Source of the DNA: Octopus vulgaris
Lineage: Eukaryota
NCBI GenBank assembly: GCA_951406725.2
Contig: OX597825.1
Location: 75,082,001-75,146,000 of the forward strand
DNA: 64,000 bases
Direction: 5' to 3'
Both the position numbers and the translations under genes were made by a program. This document shows positions 19,420 to 64,000 of the stretch, in pieces; positions within the stretch are counted from its first letter, which is position 1, and each line of letters opens with the position of its first letter. The notes beneath the pieces were generated by a model that saw only the letters and a list, made by a program, of their open reading frames with translations, was not told the DNA's origin and did not search any database.

Positions 19420-19835
19420 AGGCGGGAAGCTGGCAGAAACGTTAGCACGCCGGGTGAAATGCTTAGCGTTATTTTATCTGCTGTTACATTCTGAGTTCAA
19501 ATTCTGCCGGGGTCGACTTTGCCTTTCATCCTTTCGGGGTCGATTAAATAAGTACCAGTTATGCACTTGGGTCGATATAATCAACTTAATCCATCTGTCT
19601 GTCCTTGTTTGTCTTCTCTGTGCATAGCCCCTTGTAGATAGTAAAGAAATAGGTATTTCGTCTACCGCTACGTTCTGAGTTCAAATTCTGCTTAGGTTGA
19701 CTTTGCCTTTCATCTTTTCAGGGTCGATTAAATAAGTACCAGTTACGCACTTGGGTCGATATAATCGACTTAATCCGTTTGTCTGTCCTTCTTTGCCCTG
19801 TCTGTGTGTAGCCCTTTGTGTGCAGTAAAGAAATA
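19420..19835 (+). mobile_element. Dimeric tRNA-derived SINE (family 1) with a 17-bp TSD
   Basis: agatagtgtgtcaggta at 19403-19419 and 19836-19852. B box gagttcaaattc in each monomer. Many copies, e.g. 1065-1450, 18443-18665(-), 21520-21725(-), 30597-30812, 36573-36790(-), 43320-43770, 47868-48063(-). Confidence 0.9.
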
Positions 19836-23076: not shown

Positions 23077-23372
23077 TAACAAGTAATCACAACATCAAAA
23101 TGGCTGTTCCATGTTACTACTACTAGTTTAACCTCAGACAGACCTTCTGCTAGCTGGTTATAGGTGTGGCGCTGCAGCTTGTATGTACGATATATGTTGC
23201 TAGCAGGGGGAACAAACCTCTACAATCCTCAAGTGCTGCACCGATAACCAGCTGGTGGAAGATCTGCCTGGGGTTAAACTAGTAGTAAGATGGAACAACC
23301 ACTTTGATGTGGCGATTAACTTTACTTGTTAGTATAGTTAATACTCTGATCTCTTCTTGAGATTTTACACCT
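23077..23372 (+). mobile_element. Older fold-back element in (TA)n (~97-bp diverged arms)
   Basis: 23077-23173 aligns to the reverse complement of 23232-23331 with many transitions and small indels. TA tracts at both ends. Confidence 0.7.
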
Positions 23373-25322
23373 ATATATGTTTATATAGTGTTTAGTCTGA
23401 AAATTATTAAGATATATTTTATCAATTTACCTGTCAATGCACTCATGTGTGACCTGTAGTAGTATTTACTCTTTTATTGCTAGTCTTTTTTTTCTTTGTT
23501 TTCCTTCTTTCACTGATTAAGCAATGTCAGTTCCCTAATCCATTTAATTGTTGGGAAACTACTTTAAAGACTTGACAAGATATAGATGGTATACCATTTT
23601 CTCAAAAAGTCAAAAAGGTGCACCTTAGTATATCTGTTCATAGTGTATCTTTTCTGAACCAGCAAAAGGAACCATATTCATTTCAATACCTTATTAATGG
23701 GAAGATCTGAACCCAGTTTGGCAAGCGAATGAAACACTGATCAATTCTAAAGTGTTGCTGATTTTATGTTTAAGTTGACAATATAAGTGTTGTCCACTGT
23801 CCTTTTTTAGCATCAGGATAGCCCCCTTCCCACAGACAAATCAACGCACTTGGTCCTATAGTATTTATTTATTGACAGCAAGCCACAGGTTAGAATTGAG
23901 CTCCTAGACCCTTAAGGCCCCTGGATAATTGCCCAGTGTGCCCATATGTCTGGACAGCACTGACTATCCAGTCCCATCAACTCAGTAAGTAATAATGTAA
24001 TGTTGCAGTTTGTAGGCCAATATTCCTTTAACCTGACTAGTTGTTTTTCCTTCATTACTAAAAGAAATAACCAAAAGTTGGAGGAGAGGCCAAATGGTTT
24101 AGAAATTTGCTTCACAATTACCAGGTTTTGCATTTGGTTCTTCTGTGTGGCAACTTGGACAAGTGTCTATTATCATGGCCTTGAGTTATCCCAACTGTGT
24201 GCAAGCCTGTTGGATGGTCTGCATCTAAAATTCAAAGGACCAGTCTTGTTACAAGACACTGTCATGATTCTGTTTAAAGATTACTTAAGGGTACATAGGT
24301 TTATGGAATACTCAACCGCATACGCTGTAATTCAAAAGTAGTTCTGTTGATTGAACAACTGGAATCAACATGAGAGCTACTACATACTCATGTAGAAATT
24401 TTACAAGATTATTCAGAGACAATGCTTTAAAGAAATACATAAGTGGAAATATACTGTTAAATGCTAAACTCAACATGTGCAAGTTTGGAGTATCGCTGTT
24501 TTTTTAGGATGGACTGCCATATATAAATAACAGTAAAAAACAATGCTTACAATAGAAAACTCAAGTAGTATACTGCATTTTTTTTTTGTCCTTATTCATG
24601 GAATTATTTTTGTGGGAGTTCATTTTATAGACATTATTATTTTATGATTAAAACAAATAATGAAGTATTTTTTTGTTACATTGTCATGTCTTTGAAAGAA
24701 AATGTAAGTCAAATAGGAAGGGCAAGAAAAAAAAAAATCCAAATCTGAAGTGGTTTATTCAATAGTTATATTTCTATAATTAGAACAACTATATTTCCAA
24801 TGCTGAAAGTAGCAAAAAAATTTACTCAAAATATTACAGTCTTTGCCTTAATTATAAAGTAACTTTTTTTTCTAGCACGTCTTTGTGTGTGTGTGTGTGG
24901 TACTATTCATCAACTTTCAGAGTCTTTGTAAATGACCATCTCATGAATAGTAAAGTTTACTTTTGTAGTCTTTTAATAATTGTTAAGTTTCTGTTCCAGA
25001 AAATATGAAAAACTACTCTGAAATATATGCATTTACTTTATTTTATTTTTTGCACACGTTTGAGATTATTTCTATTCAGTTTTGGATAGAGGGAACATTT
25101 ATTTCAAAGAATTCTCTGTATGAGTCATTAATGAAGATAAAAAATTAACAGATTTCACATACAAGTCAGATTCTATAATTTTCTCAAATTGTAGATAATG
25201 ATGATGATATATATATATATATATCAAGGGAAAGTTTATGAAAATAAACAAAATACAAAGGAAGGTGGAGTAGAAACAAACAAATGTATTAGTATAGCGC
25301 TCAGGAATAGAAATAGAAAAAG

Positions 25323-33419: not shown

Positions 33420-33830
33420 AGGCGGCGAGCTGGCAGAAACGTTAGCACGCCGGGCGAAATGTTTAATAATATTTCAGCTGTCTTTACATTCTGAGTTCAG
33501 ATTCCGCTGAGGTCGACTTTGCCTTTCATCCTTTTGGGGTCGATTAAATAAGTACCAGTTACGCACTGGGGACGATATAATCGACATAATCCATGTGTCT
33601 GTCCTTGTTTGTCCTCTCTGTGTCCCTTGTGGGTAGTAAAGAAATAGGTATTTCAGCTGTCTTTACGTTCTGAGTTCATATTCTGCCGAAGTCGACTTTG
33701 CACTTCATCCGTTCTGGGTCGATTAAATAAGTACCAGTTACGCACTGAGGTCGATATAATCAGCTTAATCTGTTTGTTTGTCCTTGTTTGTCCCCTCTGT
33801 GTGTAGCCTCCTGTGGGCAGTAAAGAAATA
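33420..33830 (+). mobile_element. Dimeric family 1 SINE nested in a minus-strand family 2 SINE
   Basis: Same dimer structure as 19420. Diverged TSD aagcaacggagctgcaaa / aagtaatggagctgcaaa. Confidence 0.85.
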
Positions 33831-37291: not shown

Positions 37292-37300
<9 letters not shown>

Positions 37301-37700
37301 TCATGATGTGTTACCGCTACTGTTTATAACTCGCTCTGAGATTTATCATTGTTTGATTTCACTTTTTCAATATCAGTGTCAAATTGACACTGGAAAAAGT
37401 ATATGTATTTGTGAAGGGATCTGACTTCTCATCGACAACCATGATTGTCACACGCTGATGAAAGGTAAACACCTTGAAACTCGGGTACGTGTGTATCATG
37501 TGTTGAAGACGGGGAGGATGACTCCCCTTCACAAATACTGACAAGACACAGATAGTGTGTCTATAGCCAACTGGAGGAGATATCTTCCTGGGGCTACAAA
37601 CTACAGTAGCATCCACCCTTATGGGTTAGCCATGTTCAAATGGCATATATGCATCACGATGTGTTACCGCTACTGTTTATAACTCGCTCTGAGATTTATC

Positions 37701-37703
<3 letters not shown>
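37292..37703 (+). mobile_element. Penelope-like/retrozyme-type element: 353-bp unit plus a 59-bp direct terminal repeat, inserted in (TA)n
   Basis: 37292-37350 equals 37645-37703 with 1 mismatch. (TA)n on both sides, internal hammerhead, no meaningful ORF. Confidence 0.8.
37449..37493 (+). ncRNA. Minimal type I hammerhead ribozyme, canonical core
   Basis: Stem I cacacg/cgtgtg; CUGAUGA; stem II aaggt-aaac-acctt; GAAA; near-palindromic stem III actcgggt; GUA cleavage triplet at 37485-37487. Confidence 0.88.
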
Positions 37704-52309: not shown

Positions 52310-52643
52310 ATTTCGTTTTTGGATTCGGTTTGCAAGATTCTTTATATGAGTTCGTGTGTTGAAGCATATTCTGTTGTGTCTGGGGAGAGTCATTTTCTTT
52401 TTGTGCCTTATGATCTAACACACTCACCTGTAAAATTTCCACTTATTTTTATTTTCCTAAAATTTTCATTGCGTCTTGCAACCTTTTCAGTAGTCTTGAC
52501 TCTCAAGACTATTGAAAAGGTTGCAAGACGCAACAAAAATTTTAGGAAAATAAAAATAAGAAATAAGTGGAAATTTTACCGGTGTGTGTGTGTTACATTA
52601 TAAGGCACAAAAAGAAAATGACTCTCCCCAGACACAACAGAAT
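52310..52643 (-). mobile_element. Fold-back element (~135-bp arms, 3-nt loop) with a 13-bp target-site duplication
   Basis: Arms 52368-52499 and 52503-52643. aatctctggaaat occurs at 52297-52309 and 52641-52653. Confidence 0.85.
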
Positions 52644-54225: not shown

Positions 54226-54896
54226 TTAAGTTAAGTTAATTATTTGGCTCAAAAAGCAAGGCCATGTAGGGGGACATGGAGTTATGTACAGGGAGGGTGT
54301 TCATGCAAAGAGTTCAGGCCATTTGTGGTCAAGGGAGACTTTGAACCGAGCGGTCGTCGGCATCTTCACTATCTTGTCCGGCAGCTTGTTCCACGGATCC
54401 GCAACCCGGACGGAGAAAGCCCCTCTCCTTAGATTGAGATGAAATCGTTGCAGATAGAGCTTTTCAGAGTGACCCCGCAGCCGACGCTCTGGAGCAGGAG
54501 TGAAGAACAGCTCTTTCGAGAGGTTACACTTTCCGCTTATGATGTTGTGAGCAAGAATGAGATCACCACGGCGTCGTCGTTTTTCTAGAGAATAAAGGTC
54601 AAGCGTCTTCAGCCTTTCTTCATAAGACAAATGCTTGAGACCAAGAACCATGTGGGTAGCCAGCTTCTGGACTCTTTTGAGATGCTGTATGTCTTTGAGA
54701 AGATAAGGAGAAGAGGCTTGAATCCCGTACTCCAATATGGGTCTCACCAGCGTGACATAGAGCAGTAGGAATATGGCTGCTGTGAGCATTCCGAATGACC
54801 GTCGAATCAAAAACAGAACTCCGTGTGCTTTGTTGGCAGCATGGACGCACTGGGCCGAAGGCGAAAAAGAAGAATCCACCAAGATACCCAGGTCAT
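54226..54896 (-). mobile_element. 5'-truncated CR1-group LINE (ORF2 C-terminus, short 3' UTR, ttaac-type tail)
   Basis: ORF 54301-54882 has LY.TLVRPILEYG...SPY..KDI..L.RVQ.LAT...GL..LSYEERL..LDL.SLE.RR.RGDLI...RGH..KL...FSVRV...WN.LP, typical of CR1/L2-group RT C-termini. Confidence 0.9.
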
Positions 54897-55418
54897 TATT
54901 GTTAAGGCATGTGATTCATTGGTTTGCACTTTGGGCTTATGATTGTGATGTTGTGAGGTCAATTCCCAGACTGAGCTCTGTGTTGTGTTCTTGAGCAAGT
55001 CATTTTACTTCACATTGTTCCTGTTCACTCAGCTCACTCAGAAAGGAGTTGCAACATTACTGGTGCCATGCTGTATCAGTTTTTGCCCTTCCGTCGGGCA
55101 ACATTGGTGGCATAGAGAGGGAAGGCTCATGTGCATGGGTGACTGTTGGTCATCCCCAAACAGCCTTACTCAGACTTGTGCCTTGGAGCGGATTTTTATC
55201 CATTATTATTATTATTATAGTGTTGGAAAATCTTGCAGTATTTCTGCCAGTTCTTTACATTTCTGCTTCACATTTCATCCTCCCTGGGTCAATTAATTAA
55301 GTACCCGTGAAACACTGGGGTCAATGTAATAGACTAGTCCTCTCCCCACAAATTTCAGGCCTTGTGCTTTTAGTAGAAAGGATTTTAATAATAATAATTA
55401 TTTATTCTTCCTCCTCAG

Positions 55419-61313: not shown

Positions 61314-61352
<39 letters not shown>

Positions 61353-61354
<2 letters not shown>

Positions 61355-61561
61355 GGAGTAAACACATAAATGTAAAACAAGGTGGAAAAAAGAGTACTCA
61401 AATACCAGTGGTAGAGTAATATGCTTTATTTAAAGCAGCAGAAAATTCATCAAAACCTGTTACTCTGAGTTTCCCGTTGCCATTCATCGGACAGTTTTTG
61501 AACGGCAACGGGAAACTCAGAGTAACAGGTTTTGTTGAATTTTCTGCTGCTTTAAATAAAG
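61353..61561 (-). mobile_element. Penelope-like terminal fragment with 5' fold-back (63-bp arms), in (TA)n
   Basis: Arms 61424-61486 and 61499-61561 are reverse complements (2 mismatches). Contains a hammerhead-like motif; homologous copy at 46134-46244. Confidence 0.75.
61457..61494 (-). ncRNA. Variant/decayed minimal hammerhead (family A)
   Basis: Minus strand reads ctgt-CCGAUGA-atg(gcaa)cgg-GAAA-ctcaga-GUA-acag. Sister copies (61499 arm, 46134-46244) imply a consensus stem II of acg-GCAA-cgt. Confidence 0.65.
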
Positions 61562-62019: not shown

Positions 62020-62023
<4 letters not shown>

Positions 62024-62414
62024 TGGTTGTATACTGTCAACTTAACGTGACAGTCCCGTATGGGAATTACACCACCGCTGTTTAGCCCTAAGAAGCATCG
62101 AACGCTTCCTGTCGGTTTTGACACATTTTCTGCGTCCTTATATTTGTGAAGGGGAAGCAAGCACCCCTACCAGCCAAGATTCACACCTGAGGACATGCAT
62201 GTTGGCTGGTAGGGATGCTTGCCTCCCCTTCACAAATATAAGGACGCAGAAAATGTGTCAAAACCGACAGGAAGCGTTCGATGCTTCTTAGGGCTAAACA
62301 GCGGTGGTGTAATTCCCTTACGGGACTGTCACGTTAAGTTGACAGTATACAACCACTCTATTGCTCCACCACCGCTCATGTCTCTGTGAGACATTTAGAA
62401 ATTTAATATTTCTG
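62020..62414 (+). mobile_element. Fold-back element: 158-bp inverted arms, 24-bp loop, 55-bp unique 3' extension, in TA/GA microsatellite
   Basis: 62020-62177 versus 62202-62359 are reverse complements with 3 mismatches. Confidence 0.85.
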
Positions 62415-64000
62415 ATATATATGTATATATATATACATACACACACACACACACATATCAATCTTTCTATTTCTCTGTGTATCTATATCTACATATACTC
62501 TCTTTTTATCTCTCTCTCTATCTATCTATCCATCTACACACAGTCATACATAAATATAAATAAGCATGTATACACTCGTGTGTGTGTGTGTATAAAAATA
62601 AGTACTTTTTTCTATAATTTAGGTGTATTTCATTATATTCTTTATGTATGAAAAAAATCAATCCTTATGGACATTATGGAATACTAATGTGTGTGTGTAA
62701 TATACAAGTGTCATTTTAAATCAGTCAACAATGTAAATATTGATGCAAACCTTGTGCGCTTCAAAGTTATTTGTACTGATTCACTGGCACTCCTTTGTCA
62801 TTCACACCATCATCATAAATCCTGTAAATTGCCTACTGGGAACCTGTAAGCGATAGTGTTATTATACATAGACTGCAACATAAAATAAATAAAATAATGG
62901 ACGGTCTGTGGTTAGATTCTGTTTCCTGGGTGTTGCTGTTTCACTTCACTTCTTTTTTTGTTTTGTCTCTCGTAAAGAAATGATTAATCCTTTTTTGTCT
63001 TAATAACAATGAAACCTTCTGGTTTATTGTTTTATAGACCCTGTAACAGATTAAGACAAAACAAGTTAGCAAATAGCATCATTGTTGGTGCTTTTGGACT
63101 TTCCTGTTGTGTGCGTGTGTGTGTGTGTGAGCAAAATACTATATTTCACATTGAGTCTTTGAGCAAAATACTTTATTTTACATTGCCCCAGTCCACTCAG
63201 CTGGCAAAAGTGAGATCATCATCATCATCATCGTTTAGCGTCCACTTTCCATGCTAGCATGGGTTGGACGGTTCGACCGGGGTCTGGGAAGCCAGAAGGC
63301 TGCACCAGGCTCCAGTCTGATCTTGCAGTGTTTCTACAGCTGGATACCTTTCCTAACGCCAACCACTCCATGAGTGTAGTGGGTGCTTTTTACATGCCAC
63401 CAGGGCTGGCCTTGTCACATCCTGGATCTTGCTCAATCTCCCAGAGAACTATGTTGAGGATACGTGTGTTTGTAGAGTACTCAGCCACTTGCACGTTAGT
63501 TTCATGAGCTGGCTGTTCCATTGATTGGATCAACTGGGGCACTCATCATCATAACCAGAATGCTGGTGTGTGTGTGTGTGTGTGTGTGTGGATGTATGTG
63601 TGTGAACATGCATCATTTAATGTTCATCCTCTATACTGGCATTGGCTGGATGGTTTAATGGGATCCGACAGGTCAAAGGACAGCATACTTCTGTACCTGC
63701 ATTGGCATGATTTCTATAGCTGCATGCACCTCCCTAATGCCAACCACTTTACTGAGTGATGACTGGGTGATTTTTGCCATGGCACCAATATATTGAGGTT
63801 ACCATTTAGCTTGCAAGGCTAAAACCCCTTCAACTGCATGGGGCTGCAGTAGAGTAGGGGACAATTTTATGCTAGGTGATGTAATGTTAGAGTATGAAGG
63901 AATGGACCGAGTTTCTCCTTGTGGAAGAGATACATAATTGCTCACATTATACAAGAATGCATGGAAGTAATCAGTGTGAAGGTGGAAAGAGCGAGGAAGA

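What the first reader, a model, noticed from the sequence alone, without database searches (positions are those of the whole stretch)
37498..37645. Unassigned multi-hairpin RNA fold shared by three diverged (TA)n-embedded elements, directly 3' of a hammerhead
Seen: three inserts that align poorly overall (37498-37645, 62198-62347, 23194-23342) have the same ordered architecture on the + strand. (1) A 5' tgttg segment pairing with the segment after the A-run: atgtgttgaag/ctacagtagcat; gctg/cagc; atgttgctag/ctagt(agt)aa(c/g)at. (2) A purine-run/pyrimidine-run hairpin (gggga..tcccc; agggg..cccct; ggggg..cctct) followed by a conserved linker (ttcacaaata identical in two copies, acaat in the third). 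(3) A second hairpin (gacac..gtgtc; gacgc..gtgtc). (4) An internally looped stem whose outer helix covaries (tagcc/ggcta versus taacc/ggtta; imperfect aacc/ggct at 62.2 kb) and whose inner helix changes sequence but stays paired (ggagg/cttcc; ggtgga/tctgcc; aggaagc/gcttctt), ending in GGGYTA..AAC. (5) Two more hairpins (ccc-tta-Yggg or ccac/gtgg; gccat/atggc, ctgtca/tgacag, ttaact/agttaa). (6) A 3' end containing tgaga(ca)ttt before (TA)n. Inference: a selected cis-acting RNA domain, such as an RT-recruitment signal or an unknown ribozyme, in Penelope-like/retrozyme termini. By eye it does not fit hammerhead, HDV-like, twister, pistol, hatchet or SECIS consensus.
Basis: partly seen in the sequence, partly recalled or inferred. 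Interest (0 to 1): 0.85.

Follow-up and report, generated by a model that had tools for sequence, protein, structure and literature searches.

The report
Folded reverse-transcription signal in hammerhead retrozymes
The three inserts are pieces of a large family of roughly 350-base non-coding jumping elements that carry a hammerhead-ribozyme motif and a predicted RNA fold kept by paired mutations, and their insertions stop at two fixed points on that fold, which likely mark where a Penelope-type reverse transcriptase starts copying them.

Summary
Partly confirmed, with a corrected structure. The three inserts belong to three of at least ten subfamilies (44-85% identical) of 346-364-nt non-coding units, each with a type I hammerhead motif: non-LTR retrozyme-like elements. 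The fold is supported across subfamilies (40 of 76 pairs change on both sides; 0 of 500 shuffles reach it). Those bases pair upstream in a ~50-bp rod that extends hammerhead stem I. The post-A-run segment forms a long-range helix (P4) with the tail. Only the 37.5-kb copy has a whole hammerhead; the other two are head-to-head inverted pairs. Copies end at two sites 43-55 nt apart (224 of 262 pieces). In 47 of 52 classified inverted pairs one arm ends at each site. That is the Penelope-like-element 'tail' footprint, so the fold is likely the RT-binding and initiation domain. No autonomous partner with this fold was found among seven sampled Penelope-like lineages. Expression and cleavage are untested. 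No Rfam match; this scan had not noted it on other DNA. A second ribozyme is unlikely.

The parts
37298..37703 (+). Copy A: 353-nt unit plus 53 nt (1.15 units) between (TC)n(TA)n and (TA)n; subfamily A, about 98% identical to other copies
   Evidence: (direct repeat, spacing 353)
37361..37400 (+). P8 hairpin with its extension, upstream of the rod; present in all 10 subfamily consensuses
37405..37538 (+). About 50-bp rod: extended hammerhead stem I (37405-37454 with 37488-37538).
   Evidence: (0 of 20000 permutations; 1 of 120 for five lineages)
37449..37493 (+). Type I hammerhead motif: stem I 37449-37454/37488-37493, core from 37455, stem II 37462-37475, short palindromic stem III; predicted cut after 37487
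   Evidence: activity not tested
37544..37562 (+).
37564..37596 (+).
37603..37676 (+).
   Evidence: (8 of 8 pairs change on both sides)
37615..37644 (+).
   Evidence: (P6 cognate test 5 of 20000)
37660..37703 (+). 'Tail': end site 1 at 37660 (16 nt 3' of P6), P4 3' strand, P7 hairpin, end site 2 at about 37703; inferred reverse-transcription start sites
62020..62203 (-). Copy B, inverted arm, ending at site 1; holds hammerhead stem III and cut site but no catalytic core
62196..62416 (+). Copy B, direct arm, 5'-truncated inside the rod, ending at site 2 before (TA)n
23079..23233 (-).
23233..23381 (+). Copy C, direct arm, 5'-truncated at P2, ending at site 2 before TA repeats

Best explanation
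These are fragments of ~350-nt non-coding, hammerhead-bearing repeat units (non-LTR retrozyme-like elements) whose predicted fold 3' of the hammerhead is conserved by compensatory change and likely serves as the binding and start platform for a Penelope-like reverse transcriptase supplied in trans. Shown from sequence: the unit, the hammerhead motif, covarying rod/P3/P4/P6, two fixed 3' ends, 5' truncation, head-to-head inversions with one arm ending at each site, and TA-rich flanks. Inferred: partial tandems are transcribed; hammerheads cut out monomers that are circularised (as shown for coral, mussel and axolotl retrozymes, PMC7229834), or uncut multimers serve as templates. A PLE RT-GIY-YIG protein binds P2-P7 and nicks both strands of a (TA)n target. 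One DNA end primes at site 1 in the linker that P4 holds open, the other at site 2 past P7. The two cDNAs run back through the domain and hammerhead, stop at variable points and join head-to-head, leaving a 43-55-nt tail on one arm only.
For: Ten subfamily consensuses, 44-85% identical, fold to one circular architecture. For the nine tested, z was -2.9 to -9.6 against 25 shuffles each. Sense is more stable than antisense in 9 of 10. On 8 natural copies: 82.8% of cells paired, 40 of 76 pairs change on both sides (shuffle mean 23.2; 0 of 500), slid controls 36-46%. On 12 copies of the 3' domain: 17 of 35 pairs, P4 8 of 8. Alignment-free cognate test: rod and P4 0 of 20000, P3b 2 of 20000, P6 5 of 20000. 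Hammerhead stem I pairs 6 of 6 in nine subfamilies and 5 of 6 in one; two subfamilies carry the U3-A8 core swap described for PLE hammerheads (PMC4209133). 3' ends: 80 at site 1, 144 at site 2, 38 elsewhere, of 262 pieces; 62 of 76 site-1 ends lie 14-18 nt past P6. Inverted pairs: 47 site1+site2, 5 site2+site2, 0 site1+site1, 19 with an unclassified arm, of 71. 148 of 249 free 3' ends run into TA. PMC11167929 shows a PLE RT starting at two internal sites of its RNA, 3' of the hammerhead, which makes the tail. PMC8557442 describes inverted copies, a tail often at one end only, and (TA)n targets. Young, near-identical PLE ORFs are abundant in G000.
Against: No autonomous PLE with this fold or sequence was found: no significant model or profile hit at PLE-bearing loci from seven GIY-YIG lineages. 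The PLE ends that I read are short and AT-rich, so the domain was not shown to derive from a PLE pLTR and the RT link rests on the integration footprint. A covarying fold could be kept for RNA stability or for the hammerhead rather than for RT binding. Most loci were picked with queries that include the tail, which inflates site-2 counts. The structure was derived from the same sequences it was counted on, only 8-12 rows were used, 'further pair types' was not above shuffles (384 of 500), and R-scape was not available. Consensuses F, I, J and K rest on 5-11 pieces. P2 and P7 show little covariation. Several hammerhead cores depart from consensus.
Confidence: 0.62

Rival explanations
1. The elements are PLE-mobilised retrozymes, but the conserved fold is selected for life as an RNA (compact nuclease-resistant circle, correct hammerhead folding, ligation, host-protein binding). 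The RT start sites are then set by accessible single-stranded stretches and TA microhomology, not by recognition of the fold.
For: The whole unit, not only the 3' domain, is conserved in structure. Known retrozymes are highly self-paired circles (PMC7229834). The autonomous PLE ends read here are short and AT-rich, without this domain.
Against: Site 1 keeps a fixed register to P6 across subfamilies whose linker sequence has diverged. The domain is branched with conserved loop bases rather than maximally paired. The PLE of PMC11167929 needs the region 3' of its hammerhead for activity.
Confidence: 0.22
2. The domain is a second, unknown self-cleaving ribozyme, and the two end sites are RNA cuts that give 3' ends for priming.
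For: No Rfam match; 9 invariant unpaired columns, including the P3 internal loop and the P6 loop; sharp ends.
Against: 80 of 262 pieces are longer than one unit and so read through both sites. The sequence at site 1 is not conserved between subfamilies. Two internal start sites are already explained by PLE RT behaviour (PMC11167929).
Confidence: 0.05
3. The units move or amplify as DNA (foldback/MITE, Helitron-like rolling circle or satellite), and the helices come from inverted duplications in DNA rather than selection on RNA.
For: 137 of 264 pieces have an inverted piece at their 5' end; partial tandems are common.
Against: Inversion points vary while 3' ends are fixed. Helices keep G-U pairs and bulges, and sense folds better than antisense in 9 of 10. 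The hammerhead stem and core are kept with compensatory changes. This matches the PLE description in PMC8557442.
Confidence: 0.05
4. The units are not independent retrozymes but 5'-truncated ends of a longer autonomous PLE, not sampled here, that carries this domain in its pLTR.
For: The footprint is identical to PLE insertions; PLE diversity in G000 was sampled only in part (15 loci, seven lineages).
Against: 71 stretches of 343-377 nt (some overlapping) show the unit joined head-to-tail to itself. No shared non-unit sequence abuts 112 free 5' ends or 249 free 3' ends, apart from simple or common repeats and one duplicated locus. No long ORF lies in the units.
Confidence: 0.06

Closest known systems
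Metazoan non-LTR retrozymes (Cervera and de la Pena 2020, PMC7229834; mussel 350-390 nt, axolotl 330/350 nt)
   Same: Non-coding ~350-nt repeat unit with a type I hammerhead; self-paired predicted circle; tandem copies; co-occurs with PLEs.
   Different: Here mostly dispersed partial tandems and inverted pairs in (TA)n; at least 10 subfamilies share one covarying branched fold; two fixed end sites. In the parts read, that paper calls sequences species-specific, reports no covariation analysis and names PLEs only as strong candidates for mobilisation. Expression and cleavage were shown there, not here.
Non-LTR retrozymes as non-autonomous PLE derivatives (Li, Clavereau, Pollet, bioRxiv 10.64898/2026.07.22.740005)
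   Same: Same conclusion on the mobiliser.
   Different: Their evidence is co-occurrence and pLTR homology in Xenopus; the main text has no occurrence of 'tail' or 'secondary structure'. Here the evidence is the integration footprint, and pLTR homology was not found.
PLE 'tail' and internal RT initiation (Poseidon of Anolis; Frangieh et al. 2024, PMC11167929)
   Same: Two start sites 3' of the hammerhead, tail between them, AT-rich targets, both strands extended, uncut RNA usable as template.
   Different: There the signal lies in the ORF of an autonomous element, is described as an AC-rich stem loop, and no strand difference in start site was seen in vitro. Here it is non-coding, a multi-helix covarying domain, the tail is 43-55 nt and the two arms of an insertion nearly always use different sites.
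Non-autonomous Chlamys elements such as MRC1 (Craig et al. 2021, PMC8557442)
   Same: Non-coding elements with PLE-type tandem insertions and microsatellite targets.
   Different: That paper says most Chlamys elements lack hammerheads, and the non-autonomous ones generally share 3' sequence with autonomous families; these units carry a hammerhead motif and share no detected sequence with the PLEs sampled.

Membership tests
Non-LTR retrozyme | Type I hammerhead motif in each unit | tested here: met
   All 10 consensuses; stem I 6 of 6 pairs in nine, 5 of 6 in one; some core departures
Non-LTR retrozyme | Repeat unit of 150-450 bp in tandem copies | tested here: met
   Consensus units 346-364 nt; 80 of 262 pieces longer than one unit; three or more units at L202
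Non-LTR retrozyme | No protein-coding frame | tested here: met
   Longest ATG-started frame 28-71 codons on either strand
Non-LTR retrozyme | Highly self-paired monomer | tested here: met
   Prediction only: z -2.9 to -9.6 for nine consensuses; covariation
Non-LTR retrozyme | Self-cleavage of the RNA | not testable with these tools
   Needs transcription assay
Non-LTR retrozyme | Expressed as linear and circular monomers | tested here: inconclusive
   Only contigs of runs guessed to be RNA were available; these cannot show strand, ends or circles
Non-LTR retrozyme | Target-site duplications, when present, longer than 4 bp | not tested
   TA-repeat flanks hide them
PLE-mobilised element (integration footprint) | Variable 5' truncation with fixed 3' ends | tested here: met
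PLE-mobilised element (integration footprint) | Inverted 5'-truncated copy at the 5' end | tested here: met
   137 of 264 pieces; 71 pairs
PLE-mobilised element (integration footprint) | Short tail present at one end only | tested here: met
   47 of 52 classified pairs; tail 43-55 nt against 30-40 in PMC8557442
PLE-mobilised element (integration footprint) | AT-rich or (TA)n targets | tested here: met
   148 of 249 free 3' ends; no genome-background control was run
Autonomous Penelope-like element | RT plus GIY-YIG ORF | tested here: not met
   not filed as an autonomous PLE
Deletion derivative of a known autonomous PLE | Sequence or fold shared with an autonomous pLTR | tested here: not met
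   No hit at loci of seven PLE lineages; sampling was partial and not every fetched stretch was checked to reach the element's end
Any Rfam 15 family (other ribozymes, SECIS, tRNA-SINE head) | Covariance-model match | tested here: not met
   No match at E up to 1 over copies A and C; over copy B only a sub-threshold miRNA-hairpin hit (44.5 of 79 bits) on its inversion; none at gathering score in three loci. Rfam also missed the hammerhead, so sensitivity is limited

The most novel reading that the evidence does not exclude
P2-P7 is a dedicated, telomerase-RNA-like template module for Penelope-type reverse transcriptases. A non-coding circular RNA parasite would have evolved it without matching the PLE's own pLTR. 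It would hand one start site to each nicked DNA strand, so that a dimeric RT twin-primes and makes the head-to-head insertions. It would be a portable ~160-nt tag that lets a PLE RT copy any RNA into (TA)n.
Probability: 0.25. Interest if true: 0.75.

Novelty: new variant of a known kind. Interest (0 to 1): 0.5.

Why it matters
How animal retrozymes get back into the genome, and what RNA feature a Penelope-type RT recognises, are open; the papers read propose PLEs from co-occurrence and pLTR homology. These families give footprint evidence (tail, inversions, TA targets) and place two start sites on a fold fixed by natural compensatory changes, so the question can be tested with a defined 160-nt RNA and a young PLE ORF from the same genome. 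The one-site-per-arm rule constrains models of PLE integration. The elements are also numerous: roughly 22,000 insertions (95% range 4,600-65,000, from 3 in 380 kb of unselected sequence).

Tried and rejected
Helix 1 reached 532 of 20000 with ten related subfamilies, but 16 of 120 with five lineages, like the non-partner control (12 of 120). The P6 row used the wrong 5' segment and was redone; the P2 and P3 rows have family C misaligned. Rfam: nothing. Search for the autonomous partner: a young PLE with an open frame of 1092-1200 codons, a 781-codon PLE and five more lineages lack the fold; the best blastn hit was 40 nt at E 0.04. Shared flanks: none pointing to a longer element. Metagenome motif scan: 119 loci, no profile hit better than E 0.16, so chance matches. 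Expression: no RNA holder listed; contigs of four runs guessed to be RNA cover the unit in pieces, with no joints listed, which is no evidence either way. Structure-aware MAFFT and R-scape were not available. Supplement text of PMC11167929 gave no hits; its figures S1-S2 could not be seen and may show the fold at the start sites. Supplements of the other papers were not read and may list related families. Earlier scan notes: none for this genome or sequence; one unrelated PLE-end note.

Full report
WHAT IS IN THE WINDOW. Copy A (37298-37703) is a 353-nt unit plus 53 nt, shown by a direct repeat at spacing 353. It holds the window's only complete type I hammerhead motif of these families (core at 37455, predicted cut after 37487). 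Copies B and C are head-to-head pairs: an inverted arm (62020-62203; 23079-23233) abuts a direct arm (62196-62416; 23233-23381). Rfam has no match over A or C and only a sub-threshold miRNA-hairpin hit on B's inversion; three other loci gave none at gathering score.

THE FAMILY. Each copy has many relatives in G000 (2472, 3067 and 1236 first-look candidates, 40 scored each). Upstream of B and C relatives there is also a hammerhead motif. A motif search gave 312 hits against 0 for the reversed control, and further DNA searches added subfamilies. From 212 loci plus the window, 71 head-to-tail unit stretches of 343-377 nt were cut out, some overlapping. Ten consensuses of 346-364 nt were built, 44-85% identical to each other, from 5-50 pieces each; copies are 89-98% identical to their consensus. 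No unit has an ATG frame over 71 codons. Three insertions in 380 kb of unselected sequence give about 22,000 in the genome (4,600-65,000).

THE FOLD. All consensuses fold alike as circles. In order: P8 hairpin; a ~50-bp rod with the hammerhead at its tip; P2; P3 with an internal loop; an A-rich linker; long-range P4 enclosing P5, P6 and a ~25-nt linker; P7. The z-scores were -2.9 to -9.6 for the nine tested, and sense beat antisense in 9 of 10. On a MAFFT alignment of 8 natural copies, 82.8% of 588 cells pair and 40 of 76 pairs change on both sides (shuffle mean 23.2; 0 of 500); slid partners give 36-46%. On 12 copies of P2-P7, 17 of 35 pairs change on both sides, P4 8 of 8; further pair types were not above shuffles. 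These structures were derived from the same sequences and hand-edited, which favours them. An alignment-free check asks whether a strand pairs better with its own subfamily's partner than with another's. It gave 0 of 20000 for both halves of the rod and for P4, 2 for P3b (1 of 120 on five lineages), 125-220 for P3a, P5, P7 and P8, and 2346 for P2; P6 gave 5. Hairpin 2 does form in prediction when the upstream strand is missing (0.33-0.83 in nine subfamilies, 0 in one), so it may be a transient form. Paired columns are better conserved than unpaired (0.82 against 0.68). Hammerhead stem I is compensated throughout (6 of 6 pairs). Helix sizes fit the canonical type I description, and two subfamilies carry the U3-A8 core swap (PMC4209133).

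THE FOOTPRINT. Of 262 distinct pieces, 80 end at site 1, 144 at site 2 and 38 elsewhere (with a narrower site-1 window, gave 76, 144 and 42). Uniform ends would put about 15 in the site-1 window (my arithmetic); site 2 is inflated because most queries included the tail. Site 1 sits 14-18 nt past P6 in 62 of 76 cases although the linker sequence differs between subfamilies. Of 71 inverted pairs, 47 have one arm at each site, 5 both at site 2, none both at site 1, and 19 have an unclassified arm. Subfamily E, selected with a query ending at site 1, gave 4 mixed, 1 site2+site2, 0 site1+site1 and 2 unclassified. The three pairs not selected for both arms (window B, window C, L129) are all mixed. 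5' ends do not pile up at the hammerhead cut (6 of 216), 129 run through it, and 80 pieces exceed one unit, so templates were circles or uncut multimers (inference). 137 of 264 pieces have an inverted neighbour and 148 of 249 free 3' ends run into TA (no background control).

MECHANISM. PMC11167929 (parts 1-2 of 4 read; supplement text searched without hits) shows a PLE protein cutting AT-rich DNA on both strands and starting cDNA at two internal RNA sites 3' of the hammerhead, which makes the tail; cleavage was not needed. PMC8557442 (passages) describes inverted truncated copies, a tail often at one end only and (TA)n targets. The units here show each of these features, so PLE mobilisation is well supported. 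That the fold is what the RT recognises is inferred from the fixed register of the start sites (overall confidence 0.62). The main rival is a fold kept for RNA stability or processing (0.22). A second ribozyme (0.05), DNA-level movement (0.05) and ends of an unsampled long PLE (0.06) fit poorly.

AGAINST. The partner was not found. G000 holds very young PLEs. Seven lineages by GIY-YIG identity were sampled at 15 loci. The ends that I read have a hammerhead-like motif followed by a short AT-rich stretch and a simple repeat, mostly (TA)n (part's output was cut). None matched the model or profile. Expression, circularity and cleavage are untested, and no other species could be searched. The organism was not established.

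COMPARISON AND NOVELTY. The element works like, and by all sequence-testable features is, a non-LTR retrozyme (PMC7229834, parts 2-3 of 6 and passages; bioRxiv 10.64898/2026.07.22.740005, parts 1 and 3 of 5 and passages; PMC8969392, passages). It is not an autonomous PLE. I found no description of a covarying non-hammerhead domain shared by retrozyme families, or of tail and inversion footprints on them, in nine searches (listings only, except the papers named). The library lacks most subscription papers and Repbase/Dfam entries. A 2026 octopus repeat annotation (PMC13282606, passages) contains neither 'hammerhead' nor 'retrozyme'. The terms 'twin priming' and 'telomerase-RNA-like' are recalled comparisons, not test results.

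VERDICT. New variant of a known kind; interest 0.5.

Noticed in passing
window 61352-61561: Another head-to-head pair between (TA)n tracts, with a ~75-nt extension on one arm; a related pair at L141:3745-3955 shows a hammerhead-like core. Probably the end of a different PLE or retrozyme family with the same footprint.
   Followed up: partly
window 52390-52640: A further imperfect inverted pair of about 115 nt per arm, unrelated to the fold by profile and model searches.
   Followed up: no
window 19485-19835 and 33470-33802: Two tandem dimers of a ~180-nt repeat, SINE-like by eye.
   Followed up: no
window about 54300-54900 (- strand frame): A 204-codon open frame resembling the C-terminal part of a LINE reverse transcriptase (by eye; not searched).
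   Followed up: no
L123, L124 (G000:C2) and one search hits: Very young PLE with RT, Zn-finger linker and GIY-YIG: 150 scored copies about 96-100% identical, open frames up to 1200 codons, partial tandems at 4478-bp spacing. A candidate source of active RT.
   Followed up: partly
L332, L333, L341, L342: Second young PLE lineage (781-codon frame, a longer open frame upstream by eye) whose 3' region holds variable tandem repeats with CCAAT-like and CRE-like boxes before a U3-A8 hammerhead motif; possible internal promoter.
   Followed up: no
subfamily consensuses: Hammerhead core departures fixed in consensus: U3-A8 (F, G), U3 with G8 (E), C at position 4 (J, K), A at position 12 (I, low coverage), mismatch at the base of stem II (B). 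Activity unknown.
   Followed up: partly
L035, L055, L068, L186: Units sit beside or inside the TA tracts of other subfamilies or of PLE ends, suggesting repeated use of the same targets.
   Followed up: partly
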